Source: Lepidogalaxias salamandroides
Lineage: Eukaryota
Direction: 5' to 3' (one strand)
Length of the DNA: 64,000 bases
Assembly (NCBI GenBank): GCA_049190665.1
Contig: CM110852.1
Below, in pieces: positions 47,700 through 50,600 of the stretch; the first letter of the stretch is position 1, and every line of letters begins with the position of its first letter. Made by a program: the position numbers.

Positions 47700-50600
47700 A
47701 TATATATATATATAGATATATATACAGGGATGGGAAGTAACGAAGTAGGCCTACAAGTACTTTGTTACAGATTTTTCAGTACTTTTGTACTTTTTGGAGT
47801 ACTTATTTTTCTGACTACTTTGTACTTTTACGAAGTACATTTGAACACAAATACTGGTAGTTTCTACTCGTTACATTTTCAAAACAAAACAAAAAAGTCA
47901 AAAGTAAGCGGCCTCGTGACAGACCCAACGTTCTATTGACTGGTCTCCACGCGACTCGCAGCGGAATTGCACGAACTTGAACAGACGAGACGAACAAGGA
48001 AAGTGAAAACACGACGCACTTGGATTTTGTACGATTTTTTAACTACGGCAAGCGACTGGAAATCTCCCGTCATCATGAACCTGGTGAGATTCAGCATTTT
48101 CTGTCGGCAAATATCGTGTTTTTACAAAAAAATGCCGTTTCTGATGTTTGTTTTTGAGTCGCACCAATCATGATACGCTTTGTGAGTTCATGCTTGTTTA
48201 ACGAAATATATGAACTACAAAATTAAAATGTGTGGTCTAAAGAGATCCAGGAGAGGGCGCTGTGGCGCAGGTTAAACACGTTTGCTTTCTGTAAAAACGT
48301 TCAACAACCCCAAAGCAGATGTGTACGCCTGTAATGAAGATTGTAATATGAAAGGCCCTCTTTGCCTTCACATTTATTTAATGTAGAATGTGACTTTGAA
48401 TGATTGGTTTTTAATACAAGTAACCTATTAAACGATAATGAAATGCCACCCATGGTTAATTCTGTAACACACCTGATCTCTAACCATGAATACATGAGAG
48501 AATAAAATGCTTTGGAGTTGGTCTTGAGTGCCCTCTCTTGGTATCCCACACAGGAGTGTGTGCCCCTGCCACCCTGCACCACAGACGGCCCTGATGCTGG
48601 CTCCCCTGGTCCCAGCCAGCCCTCCTCGCCCTCCCTCCCCCTGGTTCAGGGCCACGTAGACCCGCTCCTCCACGCTCCCTCCGCGCCTACACCGGCTACT
48701 CCCGGGAGAGTTTCCAGAAGGAAGCGGGTTCGGACCTTGCGTTTCCGGGACCCGGGCGATGAGCCGAGCACCGGCATCTCGGCCGTGCCCCCGATCTCGC
48801 GGCCGGCCGGCCCTCAGGGAGGCGGAGAGGAGGGGTCCTGGAGCCCTTCTGACCCCTTCTTTTCCCAGCTGGAGGACTCCTCTCTGGCAGCTGAGGTACA
48901 GTATAAGGTCCACCTAATAGCTGGCTGCTGTTCCTTCCTGCTGCTTGCGTTCCTATAGCGTTGACCCGTCCGCCCCCTCTGTCGTCCTTTCTGTGTGTCT
49001 CTCTCTCTGTCTGTCAGACTCAGGAGAGGAGGCTGAGGGAGATGGTGCAGGAGCAGCGTCTGGCTGCCCTGAAGGAGCAGCATCTGGCTGCCCTGGAGGA
49101 GCCGCTGGAGGAACGCTACCTCCGCAACGCTGCCGTCTTGCCGGACTGGCGCCCCCGCCGGACCTCCTCCCCGGCCCCACGCGACTCGGGGTCTGGGGTC
49201 TCGACGGCTGCGGAGGAGCCCCTGAGGATCCACGGCCTCGCGGTGGAGGAGTACCAGAGCCTCTACCACTCCGTGGTGGACCCCCTGCTGGTCACTACCA
49301 ACGGCAAGCCCCGGAAGTACTCCCTGGACCTGGGCCGCAGGATCAAGGAGCAGCTGTTCCGGGCTCTCTACTGCCCCGGGGACCAGTCGGTCGCCGTGAG
49401 CATCCCGCGGTTCGACCTGGACGTCAGCGGTGAGCCTAGTTGCTCGCCACCCGCCGCGAAGAGGCACCGGTGCTGAGCTCCGCCTGAGGTACAGAATGAG
49501 GTCCACCTAATAGCTGGCTGCAGTTCTTTCCTGCTGCTTCCGTTCCTATAGCGTTGACCCGTCCATGCCTCTGTCATCCCTTCTGTGTGTGTCTCTCGCT
49601 CTGTCAGGCTCAGGAGAGGAGGAGGAGGGAGGTGGAGCAGCGTCTGGCTGTCCTACCGGAGCAGCGTCTGGCTGCCCTGCAGGAGGAGTGTCTGGCTGTC
49701 CTACAGGAGCAGCGTCTGGCTGCCCTGCAGGAGGAGTGTCTGGCTGTCCTGCAGGAGGAGCGTCTGGCTTCCCTGGAGAAGAGCTACCTCCACAACGCCA
49801 CTGTCTTGGCCGAGGTGCCGGTGCTGAGCTCCGCCTGAGGTACAGTATAAGGTTCACCTAATAGCTGGCTGCAGTTCTTTCCTGCTGCTTCCGTTCCTAT
49901 AGCGTTGACCCTCTCTCTCTCTCTATCTCTCTGTCAGGCTCAGGAGAGGAGGGAGGTGGTGCAAGAGCAGCGTCTGGCTGCCCTGCAGGAGGAGTGTCTG
50001 GCTGTCCTGCAGGAGGAGCGTCTGGCTTCCCTGGAGAAAAGCTACCTCCACAACGCCACTGTCTTGGCCGAGGTGCCGGTGCTGAGCTCCGCCTGAGGTA
50101 CAGTATAAGGTTCACCTAATAGCTGGCTGCAGTTCTTTCCTGCTGCTTCCGTTCCTATAGCGTTGACCCGTCCATGCCTCTGTCATCCCTTCCGTGTGTG
50201 TCTCTCTATCTCTGTCAGGCTCAGGAGAGGAGGTGGAGGGAGGTGGTGCAGGAGCAGCATCTGGTTTTCCTACAGGAGCAGCGTCTGGCTGCCCTGCAGG
50301 AGCAGCGTCTGGCTGCCCTGCAGGAGGAGTGTCTGGCTGCCCTTGAGAAACGCTACCTCCGCAACGCCGCTGTCAAGACGGAGCTGAGCTCCACCTAAGG
50401 CCAGGCTGCTTTGTACATAACTGTATATAATAGTAATAGATGTATAACATGATAATAGCATAGTAGTATTTTTAAGACGTATTGAACAATTTAAGTGAGT
50501 TTGTTTTATTCCCCCTAAAATCCAAACAAAAAACAATATAAAAATACACAAAAACCTCAAAAAAACATGAATTATTTATTGTCAAATTGAATTTTGTGTT

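What the first reader, a model, noticed from the sequence alone, without database searches (positions are those of the whole stretch)
48075..50400. Tandemly duplicated exon-intron cassette at the 3' end of an unidentified proline-rich/coiled-coil gene
Exon models at 48075-48083, 48554-48895 and 49018-49429 are all in phase 0 with consensus sites. The last coding block and its downstream intron-like 110-bp block are then repeated three more times, at 49489-49845, 49846-50096 and 50097-50400. Each copy lacks the RIHGL...RFDLDVSG module and ends with TGA immediately before a GTACAG donor. This looks like a recent local amplification generating alternative or pseudo 3' exons. The retained module (EEYQSLYHSVVDPLL...KPRKYSLDLGRRIKEQLFRALY) looks conserved, but I could not assign it.
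Basis: partly seen in the sequence, partly recalled or inferred. Interest (0 to 1): 0.6.

Follow-up and report, generated by a model that had tools for sequence, protein, structure and literature searches.

The report
Duplicated intron-exon cassettes behind C22orf31-like gene
The last intron plus a shortened copy of the last exon of a fish gene of unknown function (the C22orf31/DUF4662 family) has been copied three times just behind the gene's real stop codon; this is ordinary local tandem duplication, with no evidence that the copies encode anything.

Summary
The repeat is real. Four head-to-tail units (A 48896-49488, B 49489-49839, C 49840-50097, D 50098-50398) each hold a copy of intron 2 and the start of the last exon. 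The gene is now identified as a teleost (gadiform-like) member of Pfam DUF4662, the family of human C22orf31. Its closest relative is a Merluccius polli protein at 74% identity. The frame runs on to TGA at 49474-49476 and encodes the family's usual C-terminus (SGEP...KRHRC*). B-D therefore lie downstream of the stop. They lack about 310 bp that encode the conserved core. One truncated unit is old, because M. polli has it with the same deletion and the same flank. B and C are newer (91-96% identical). An outgroup, Alosa, has none. The sub-repeat is 24 nt, not 27. The open frames in the copies are not evidence of coding: nearly all three frames are open there, and unit D is no better conserved than introns. 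A fifth copy of the acceptor and exon head at 57729, with a conserved AATAAA, is probably a genuine terminal exon. Whether the copies are 3'UTR pseudo-exons or alternative last exons needs RNA data. Low interest.

The parts
48075..48083 (+). Candidate first coding exon (ATGAACCTG|gtgaga); unverified
   Evidence: Sequence. Exon 2 holds no ATG, so an upstream start is needed. M. polli has ATG|GTGAAT at the comparable place, but the region does not align by BLAST. The homologue of M. polli's annotated exon 1 (window 48229 onward) carries an in-frame stop.
48554..48895 (+). Exon 2: Pro/Ser-rich, phase 0 at both ends, ends GCTGAG|GTACAG
   Evidence: tblastn gives 73% identity to P0001. Composition is 22 Pro and 16 Ser in 114 residues. 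dN/dS against M. polli is 0.51.
48896..49017 (+). Intron 2 (122 nt), the template of the intron-like blocks
   Evidence: It has an in-frame stop if read through. Its position is conserved in Alosa alosa: GAG|GTACAA ... ACAG|GCCAAAGAG.
49018..49476 (+). Terminal coding exon (unit A) with stop TGA at 49474-49476. Contains a helical head with 24-nt repeats (49049-49102), ERYLRNAAVLPD, a linker, the DUF4662 core (49222-49428) and an SGEP...KRHRC C-terminus.
   Evidence: Pfam PF15578 E=3e-18, 67 bits against a cut-off of 27. Family alignments. AlphaFold2 gives pLDDT 95-98 for the head helix and the core.
49477..49488 (+). 12-nt tail after the stop, ending at the duplication junction CCTGAG|GTACAG
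   Evidence: The microhomology CTGAG(G) is shared with the end of exon 2 and with the original 3' flank.
49489..49839 (+). Unit B: intron-like block 49489-49607, truncated exon-like block 49608-49839 (232 nt, 5.7 copies of the 24-nt repeat)
49840..50097 (+). Unit C: intron-like block 49840-49937 (with an internal deletion), exon-like block 49938-50097 (160 nt)
   Evidence: A 228-nt stretch is 95% identical to its copy at an offset of 258 nt (family D4).
50098..50398 (+). Unit D: intron-like block 50098-50218, exon-like block 50219-50398 ending in TAA. By its flank it is the orthologue of the single truncated unit of M. polli.
   Evidence: Identity to M. polli is 81-83%, against 87-88% for the introns of the gene.
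50399..50494 (+). Conserved AT-rich block, the original 3' flank of the gene. Holds two UGUANAUA motifs (50412, 50422) and ends at a candidate donor TTTAA|GTGAGT.
   Evidence: 89% identical to M. polli. Motifs found.
50667..50822 (+). Exon-like block X (cag|GTTGGC...TCTAAG|gtacac), probably non-coding
   Evidence: Splice-site-like ends are conserved in M. polli, but the indels are 13, 7 and 7 nt.
50855..57667 (.). Transposable-element insertion, absent from M. polli, that splits X from Y
   Evidence: BLAST colinearity breaks here. Pfam finds a hAT dimerisation domain at 51092-51694, a retroviral env at 52853-54160, and only a weak sub-threshold DUF659 match at 55291-56529.
57729..57905 (+). 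Exon-like block Y: a fifth copy of the acceptor and exon head, a 28-codon ORF 57729-57815 (AQERRRSRVEQEENQEHSRTPPPDAAAR*), and AATAAA at 57881-57886
   Evidence: Exact 19-nt motif. 93-95% identical to M. polli, dropping to 71% after the poly(A) signal. The indel is in frame (9 nt). This is the first + strand AATAAA shared with M. polli after the gene.

Best explanation
The locus is the 3' end of a gadiform-type member of the DUF4662/C22orf31 family. A segment running from the first base of intron 2 to 12 nt past the stop codon (48896-49488, 593 bp) was duplicated in tandem.

Shown:
- The coding sequence ends at TGA 49474-49476.
- Units B, C and D follow the stop. Each consists of a full copy of intron 2 (98-121 nt, with GT, pyrimidine tract and AG intact) and a last exon that has lost the ~310 bp encoding the conserved core.
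- One truncated unit and a further head copy (Y) already existed in the common ancestor with Merluccius. B and C were added later in this lineage.
- An outgroup (Alosa) has a single plain terminal exon.

Inferred origin:
- The first event was a microhomology-mediated tandem duplication. CTGAG(G) is present at both ends of the duplicated segment.
- It was followed by an internal deletion in the second copy.
- B and C then arose by unequal crossing-over between units, the latest in a 258-bp register.
- Slippage of the 24-nt coding minisatellite changed the repeat number in every unit.

Inferred consequences:
- No canonical poly(A) signal lies between the stop and the units, so they are transcribed as part of the 3' region.
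- Each unit carries a complete short intron, so the intron-like blocks are probably spliced out and B-D end up as non-coding 3'UTR pseudo-exons.
- In this species that would place exon junctions more than 50 nt after the stop and expose the mRNA to nonsense-mediated decay.
- No selective maintenance of B-D as protein-coding sequence is detectable.
For: Identity of the gene:
- Pfam DUF4662 at 67 bits.
- Homologues named C22orf31.
- 197 family representatives.
- Invariant motifs RNAAVLPD, PLxIHG, YHSVVDP and GRxIK are present.

True stop:
- The read-through SGEPSCSPPAAKRHRC* matches SGEPLPEQPKRKRARH* and SGEPRCQQPLCKRARR*.
- It is also open to the same TGA in M. polli.

Units:
- Coordinates and splice motifs. 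Repeat families. The units are local only.

Age:
- M. polli has exactly one truncated unit per gene copy, with the same deletion boundary, the same derived CAC..ACT and +9 nt states, and the same downstream flank.
- A versus truncated units are 84-90% identical. Orthologous introns between the species are 88-92% identical. B, C and D are 91-96% identical to each other.
- Alosa has no copies, and AATAAA lies about 110 nt after its stop.

Transcription through the units:
- There is no + strand AATAAA between 48501 and 52159, and no ATTAAA between 49400 and 51200.

No detectable coding constraint:
- Unit D is 81-83% identical to M. polli, against 87-88% for the introns of the gene.
- pN/pS ranges from 0.4 to 1.35, on only 3-17 substitutions per class.
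- Nearly all three frames are open in the exon-like parts.
Against: - All five indels in the exon-like parts that are not 24-nt repeat changes are multiples of 3 (6, 6, 9, 9, 6 nt), whereas indels in the intron-like parts are not. This hints that a reading frame is preserved. The sequence is 3-periodic GAG/GGA-rich, however, which favours such slippage.
- pN/pS of B and C against the M. polli unit is 0.42-0.56, like the parent gene, but the counts are too small to test.
- The acceptors of B-D are near-identical copies of a functional acceptor, so exon 2 may well splice to them.
- There are no transcript data of any kind.
- The breakpoints of the internal deletion are blurred by later substitutions.
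- The two-step history (duplication, then deletion) is the simplest reading but is not proven.
Confidence: 0.7

Rival explanations
1. The truncated units are functional alternative last exons. Exon 2 (phase 0) splices to the acceptor of B, C, D or Y. This gives short isoforms with the Pro-rich N-terminus and a helical EQRLAALQ repeat of variable length, but without the DUF4662 core and the basic C-terminus.
For: - All acceptors are intact and in phase 0, and each gives a frame that ends at the unit's tail.
- Indels in the exon-like parts are all multiples of 3.
- A truncated unit has been kept in two lineages and in both M. polli gene copies.
- pN/pS is 0.42-0.56 for B and C against the M. polli unit.
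- Block Y, which has the same head, is the best conserved stretch of the locus and has its own AATAAA. Splicing from exon 2 to a downstream 'AQERR' acceptor may therefore already be in use.
Against: - Unit D is less conserved than introns.
- Its pN/pS is 1.1-1.35.
- The open frame carries no information, because the other frames are open too.
- B and C are 232 and 160 nt (not multiples of 3) and stop 1 nt before their donor, so they are not interchangeable cassettes.
- No database protein has such an isoform, apart from one ab initio M. polli model that discards the conserved C-terminus.
Confidence: 0.2
2. One reading: the coding exon ends at the GTGAGC donor (49429|49430) and is spliced to downstream exons, so the copies form part of an extended or alternative coding region.
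For: GCG|GTGAGC resembles a consensus donor. Spliced to block X, it would give ...DLDVSGWLIHHLPKRRRR...*, which also carries a basic motif.
Against: - The 15 codons after 49429 are homologous to the C-terminus conserved across the family, and they end in a stop at the family's usual position.
- The same holds in M. polli.
- That donor leaves phase 1, whereas the unit acceptors are in phase 0.
- Block X has frame-breaking indels between the species.
Confidence: 0.05
3. The number of copies (B, C) is an assembly artefact caused by a repetitive, GC-rich stretch.
For: Tandem units of 258-351 bp that contain a 24-nt minisatellite are hard to assemble. No read data are available here.
Against: - The units differ by many substitutions and by distinct indels: a ~23-nt deletion in C's intron-like block, 72 extra nt in B, and a 9-nt deletion in D.
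- An independent assembly of another species shows the same architecture with one truncated unit.
Confidence: 0.05

Closest known systems
DUF4662 / C22orf31 protein family (Pfam PF15578)
   Same: Unit A and exon 2 encode a clear member. The HMM score is above the cut-off, all invariant motifs are present, the C-terminus is typical, and the intron position is conserved.
   Different: - The gadiform proteins have an expanded 8-residue EQRLAALQ repeat in the head helix.
- They lack about 20 residues of the core region that other teleosts have.
- They evolve fast, with dN/dS 0.5-0.8.
- The family has no known function. C22orf31 appears only in gene lists: a sperm proteome (PMC5931513) and a testicular germ-cell tumour expression signature (PMC10298883).
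Tandem exon duplication giving mutually exclusive or alternative exons (reviewed in PMC9013439 and PMC9741552)
   Same: Adjacent homologous copies of an exon, each with its own copy of the upstream intron and its splice signals.
   Different: The copies are truncated, unequal in length, out of phase (B and C), end in stop codons and lie after the gene's stop. They cannot substitute for the parent exon. No transcript evidence exists.
New introns created by tandem segmental duplication (PMC3265369, PMC4974935)
   Same: A tandem duplication places complete donor/acceptor sets at new positions, here 12 nt after the stop and further downstream. These are absent from an outgroup.
   Different: Here a whole pre-existing intron is copied, rather than an AGGT-containing piece of exon. 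The new intron copies lie in the 3' untranslated region. Whether they are spliced is untested.
Tandem-repeat-rich genomes of codfishes (PMC5894186)
   Same: The window is full of micro- and minisatellites. The gene carries a 24-nt coding repeat whose copy number differs in every unit.
   Different: That paper concerns short tandem repeats genome-wide. The 258-351-bp intron+exon unit seen here is a larger, locus-specific duplication. The species of the window was not identified.

Membership tests
DUF4662 / C22orf31 family (PF15578) | Match to the Pfam model above its gathering score | tested here: met
   67 bits against a cut-off of 27, E=3e-18, residues 136-236
DUF4662 / C22orf31 family (PF15578) | Family-invariant motifs (RNAAVLPD, PLxIHG, YHSVVDPxL, GxxxYxLxLGRxIK) | tested here: met
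   All are present in the translation of 49018-49473. Alignments with 7 and with 68 homologues.
DUF4662 / C22orf31 family (PF15578) | C-terminus DxDxSGEP followed by a short basic KR-rich end and the stop | tested here: met
   DLDVSGEPSCSPPAAKRHRC* is obtained only if the frame is read through 49429 to 49476.
DUF4662 / C22orf31 family (PF15578) | Shared gene structure: a phase-0 intron just before the A(K/Q)ER(K/R)RRE helix | tested here: met
   Same position in Alosa alosa (L002) and M. polli (L001).
DUF4662 / C22orf31 family (PF15578) | One-to-one orthology or synteny with human C22orf31 | tested here: inconclusive
   tblastx of the Alosa locus against the window found nothing beyond the gene itself. 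The human locus was not compared.
Tandem exon duplication with mutually exclusive or alternative use | Adjacent homologous exon copies with their own splice sites | tested here: met
   Four donor-type and four acceptor-type sites in register.
Tandem exon duplication with mutually exclusive or alternative use | Copies are interchangeable: similar length and the same phase at both ends | tested here: not met
   Lengths are 471, 232, 160 and 180 nt. B and C leave 1 extra nt. Every copy ends in a stop and lacks ~310 bp.
Tandem exon duplication with mutually exclusive or alternative use | Purifying selection on the copies | tested here: inconclusive
   pN/pS ranges from 0.4 to 1.35 on very few changes. 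Unit D is less conserved than introns. Indels are all multiples of 3.
Tandem exon duplication with mutually exclusive or alternative use | Transcripts that include one copy at a time | not testable with these tools
   No RNA data. No such protein in the databases searched.
Intron gain or duplication by tandem segmental duplication | The duplication yields complete splice-signal sets at positions that lack an intron in outgroups | tested here: met
   GAG|GTACAG ... TGTCAG| is retained in B, C and D. Alosa has an uninterrupted terminal exon and 3' end.
Intron gain or duplication by tandem segmental duplication | The new intron is spliced in vivo | not testable with these tools
   Needs RNA-seq or RT-PCR.

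The most novel reading that the evidence does not exclude
The array of acceptor/head modules (A, B, C, D, Y) could be a working device. Exon 2 would choose among five near-identical acceptors. This would produce either the full DUF4662 protein or coiled-coil-only isoforms of different helix length that lack the core and the basic C-terminus. Copy number and 24-nt repeat number would set the isoform ratio. Alternatively, the spliced 3'UTR copies could put the full-length mRNA under nonsense-mediated-decay control. The frame-preserving indels and the strong conservation of Y are compatible with this reading.
Probability: 0.15. Interest if true: 0.45.

Novelty: new member of a known kind. Interest (0 to 1): 0.2.

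Why it matters
The value is mostly for annotation.
- It identifies an unassigned gene as a DUF4662/C22orf31 family member.
- It fixes the gene's true stop codon.
- It suggests that the only annotated close homologue (M. polli N1851_026572) was probably mis-spliced into a duplicated pseudo-exon.

It is also a clean, datable example of how tandem duplication copies a whole intron into a 3'UTR, in a lineage known for tandem-repeat instability. If RNA data showed that the copies are used, it would become a small case study of new terminal exons or 3'UTR introns arising. It does not open a new question.

Tried and rejected
- **PDB sequence search** with the whole protein: no hit.
- **Structure prediction and fold search.** The AlphaFold2 model of the last exon is confident for the head helix and for a small beta-alpha-beta-alpha core. 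Foldseek against the PDB gave nothing better than E=5. No function could be assigned to the module.
- **Rfam scan** of 47500-51000: only a sub-threshold hit on an (AT)n run.
- **Species identification** with a TRIM exon: the best named hit is Coryphaenoides rupestris at 68%, so the species is not in the protein collection.
- **Synteny with the Alosa locus** by tblastx: nothing beyond the gene itself.
- **Open reading frames in B-D as evidence of coding:** rejected, because the other frames are open as well.
- **dN/dS on the truncated units:** too few substitutions to decide.
- **Dispersed repeat or transposon origin of the intron-like block:** rejected, because it occurs only at this locus in the window and in M. 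polli.
- **M. polli's annotated exon 1 as a guide to the start codon:** rejected, because its homologue in the window has an in-frame stop.
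Full report
**1. What is in the sequence**

The window is eukaryotic and teleost-like. It has about 42% GC, many microsatellites, and transposon and retroviral ORFs.

Between 48896 and 50398 there are four head-to-tail units. Each begins with GAG|GTACAG (GT at 48896, 49489, 49840, 50098). Each contains TGTCAG|RCTCAGGAGAGGAGG, so the exon-like parts start at 49018, 49608, 49938 and 50219.

The intron-like blocks are 98-122 nt. They are 84-96% identical to one another. 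The units occur nowhere else in the window. The 19-nt acceptor/head motif has five exact matches against none expected by chance. The repeat is therefore real and far beyond chance.

Tandem Repeats Finder gives an internal period of 24 nt, not 27. There are 2.2, 5.7, 3.1 and 4.0 copies in units A to D.

**2. What the gene is**

The joined translation of 48075-48083, 48554-48895 and 49018 onward matches Pfam DUF4662 (PF15578) at 67 bits against a cut-off of 27.

A search of 5.8 billion proteins found seven relatives, all carrying PF15578. One of them a source names 'uncharacterized protein C22orf31'. The closest is a hypothetical protein of the hake Merluccius polli, at 74% identity. A profile search found 197 family representatives.

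The invariant motifs of the family are RNAAVLPD, PLxIHG, YHSVVDPxL and GxxxYxLxLGRxIK. All are present.

The family has no assigned function:
- C22orf31 appears only in lists: a sperm proteome (PMC5931513) and a testicular germ-cell tumour expression signature (PMC10298883).
- No PDB sequence matches.
- An AlphaFold2 model gives a confident head helix and a small beta-alpha-beta-alpha core with pLDDT 95-98. That model has no significant PDB fold match.

**3. Where the coding sequence ends**

That exon would be 412 nt and would end in phase 1.

Read through, the frame gives ...FDLDVSGEPSCSPPAAKRHRC and then TGA at 49474-49476. This stretch is homologous to the C-terminus found across the family. 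Examples are DVDISGEPLPEQPKRKRARH* in Alosa, DLDVSGEPRCQQPLCKRARR* in P0004, and many others. In M. polli the same read-through (NLDVSDEPKCSQPTAKKCRR*) is open to the same TGA.

The real stop is therefore 49474-49476, and units B, C and D all lie downstream of it.

The annotated M. polli model instead splices NLD| to the next unit (AQDRRLREV...). This discards the conserved C-terminus, so it is probably a prediction error.

**4. Anatomy of the copies**

Compared with unit A, each copy keeps four parts:
- the whole of intron 2;
- the head of the exon (AQERR..., with the EQRLAALQ repeats);
- the E(R/K)(R/S)YL(R/H)NA(A/T)V segment;
- the last ~25 nt of A, including the 12 nt after the stop.

Each copy lacks about 310 bp, roughly 49146-49455. 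This segment encodes the linker, the whole DUF4662 core and most of the C-terminus.

Read from their acceptors in phase 0, B and C end with TGA one base before GTACAG. D ends with TAA (50396-50398) and is followed by GCCAGG rather than a donor.

**5. Age and origin**

The M. polli contig carries at least three tandem copies of the whole gene. Each of the two complete copies has exactly one truncated unit after its full exon. That unit shares several features with the window's truncated units:
- the same deletion boundary;
- the derived CAC..ACT states;
- a 9-nt insertion (ERLASL);
- the flank that follows the window's unit D (GCCAGGCT.TTTGTACATAACTGTATATAATAGTAATA).

One truncated unit therefore predates the split of the two lineages. 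Synonymous divergence between them is dS 0.16-0.22.

Within the window, A differs from the truncated units by 10-16% in the intron-like part, which is about the same as the between-species difference. B, C and D differ from each other by 4-9%. A 228-nt stretch is 95% identical to its copy at an offset of 258 nt. B and C are therefore later additions, best explained by unequal crossing-over.

In the clupeiform Alosa alosa, intron 2 is at the same position, with donor GAG|GTACAA. The terminal exon is single, and AATAAA follows the stop by about 110 nt. There is only one head motif. The cassette array is therefore derived.

The junction CCTGAG|GTACAG shares CTGAG(G) with the end of exon 2 (GCTGAG|GTACAG) and with the original flank (CCTAAG|GCCAGG, or GCTGAG|GCCAGG in M. 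polli). I infer a microhomology-mediated tandem duplication of 48896-49488, followed by an internal deletion in the second copy. The exact deletion breakpoints are blurred by later substitutions.

**6. Are the copies coding?**

The open frames are not evidence. In B and C one frame is fully open, and the other two run to within the last few codons.

Between the species, unit D is 81-83% identical with many gaps. Introns 1 and 2 are 88% identical and the coding exons 87-91%.

pN/pS for the truncated units ranges from 0.42 to 1.35, on only 3-17 changes per class. This cannot be distinguished either from neutrality or from the parent gene, whose dN/dS is 0.51-0.80.

One observation hints at constraint. 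The five indels in the exon-like parts that are not whole 24-nt repeats are 6, 6, 9, 9 and 6 nt, whereas indels in the intron-like parts are of arbitrary length. Because the sequence is GAG/GGA-periodic, I treat this as weak evidence.

**7. Likely consequences (inferred)**

There is no + strand AATAAA between 48501 and 52159, and no ATTAAA between 49400 and 51200. Transcription from the gene must therefore run through B-D.

Each unit carries a complete short intron copied from a functional one. The intron-like blocks are therefore likely to be removed, leaving B-D as 3'UTR exons.

In M. polli the single such junction would lie 12 nt after the stop and should be harmless. In the window, further junctions would lie about 244 and 404 nt after the stop. 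By the usual 50-nt rule, that would expose the mRNA to nonsense-mediated decay.

Alternatively, exon 2 may sometimes splice directly to the B, C or D acceptors. That would give short proteins without the core. None of this can be checked without RNA data.

**8. More of the same locus downstream**

A fifth exact copy of the acceptor/head motif lies at 57725-57743.
- It opens a 28-codon frame at 57729-57815 (AQERRRSRVEQEENQEHSRTPPPDAAAR*).
- AATAAA follows at 57881-57886.
- This block is 92-95% identical to M. polli, the best conserved part of the locus. Identity falls to 71% just past the poly(A) signal.
- The frame differs between the species only by an in-frame 9-nt indel.

It looks like a genuine terminal exon (Y). 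It may serve as the 3' end of the transcription unit, as an alternative last exon, or both.

Between D and Y lie three other features:
- a conserved AT-rich block with two UGUANAUA motifs (50412, 50422) and a candidate donor at 50495;
- an exon-like but frame-breaking block X (50667-50822);
- in the window only, a 6.8-kb transposon insertion at 50855-57667.

**9. Comparison with what is known, and verdict**

The protein is a member of DUF4662/C22orf31. Every defining feature that I could test was met.

The cassette array belongs to known kinds of event:
- tandem exon duplication (PMC9013439, PMC9741552);
- duplication-born introns (PMC3265369, PMC4974935);
- the tandem-repeat expansion reported for codfish genomes (PMC5894186).

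It fails the test for interchangeable, mutually exclusive exons, because the copies are truncated, out of phase and lie after the stop.

The finding is real and now largely explained. The gene is identified, and the exon boundary and the age of the duplication are revised. It is a new instance of a known kind of event and of low general interest, unless transcripts show that the copies are used.

Noticed in passing
window 57725-57905 (+): A fifth copy of the acceptor and exon head (TCAG|GCTCAGGAGAGGAGG). It opens a 28-codon ORF and is followed by AATAAA at 57881. It is 92-95% identical to M. polli, more conserved than the gene's own exons. Probably a real terminal exon of the same transcription unit.
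   Followed up: partly
window 50667-50822 (+): Exon-like block X with conserved acceptor and donor motifs (cag|GTTGGC...TCTAAG|gtacac). Its indels against M. polli break the frame. The 70 nt upstream of it are 92% conserved.
   Followed up: partly
window 50399-50494 (+): Conserved AT-rich stretch just after unit D. It holds two Pumilio-type UGUANAUA motifs (50412 TGTACATA, 50422 TGTATATA). Candidate donors TTTAA|GTGAGT (window) and TTTAA|GTAAGG (M. polli) follow it.
   Followed up: no
window 50855-57667: A 6.8-kb insertion relative to M. polli. It holds a hAT dimerisation domain (51092-51694, minus strand), a retroviral env-like ORF (52853-54160, minus strand) and a 412-aa ORF (55291-56529, minus strand) with only a weak, sub-threshold DUF659 match.
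   Followed up: partly
L001 (Merluccius polli JAOPHQ010004925.1) 10001-21648: The whole DUF4662 gene, with its truncated unit and Y block, is present in at least three tandem copies (starts at 10001, 17854 and 21423). The window has only one copy.
   Followed up: partly
L001 10001-11648 (protein P0001): The annotated M. polli protein splices ...FNLD| onto the duplicated unit (AQDRRLREV...). This drops the conserved SDEPKCSQPTAKKCRR* end, so it is probably a gene-prediction artefact. The homologue of its exon 1 in the window (48229 onward) has an in-frame stop.
   Followed up: partly
proteins P0012, P0021, P0024, P0025, P0029: Other DUF4662 family members from other species also show internal duplications: two or three whole domains, EDYQAIYHSV repeated four times, and a doubled KNAAVIPE segment. 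The family, or gene prediction at its loci, seems prone to tandem duplication.
   Followed up: no
window 37402-38310 (both strands): A long, very regular tandem repeat. It reads PPALSS on the plus strand and EEKRGL on the minus strand. It lies next to an immunoglobulin V-set exon on the minus strand (38300-38917).
   Followed up: no
window 32257-36034 (-): A TRIM-like gene with RING and B-box exons. The best named relative is from Coryphaenoides rupestris at 68% identity. The window's species is therefore not in the protein collection, but it looks gadiform.
   Followed up: partly
window 61755-63430 (+): ORFs that read like beta-tubulin exons (for example [58 protein letters not shown]). This was recognised by eye only.
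   Followed up: no
window 24296-25558 (+), 40537-41424 (+), 42837-43232 (-): Further mobile-element remnants. One is a Tc5/pogo-type transposase fragment with a CENP-B-like DNA-binding domain. One is a 295-aa ORF with no Pfam hit. One is a retroelement integrase zinc-binding domain.
   Followed up: partly
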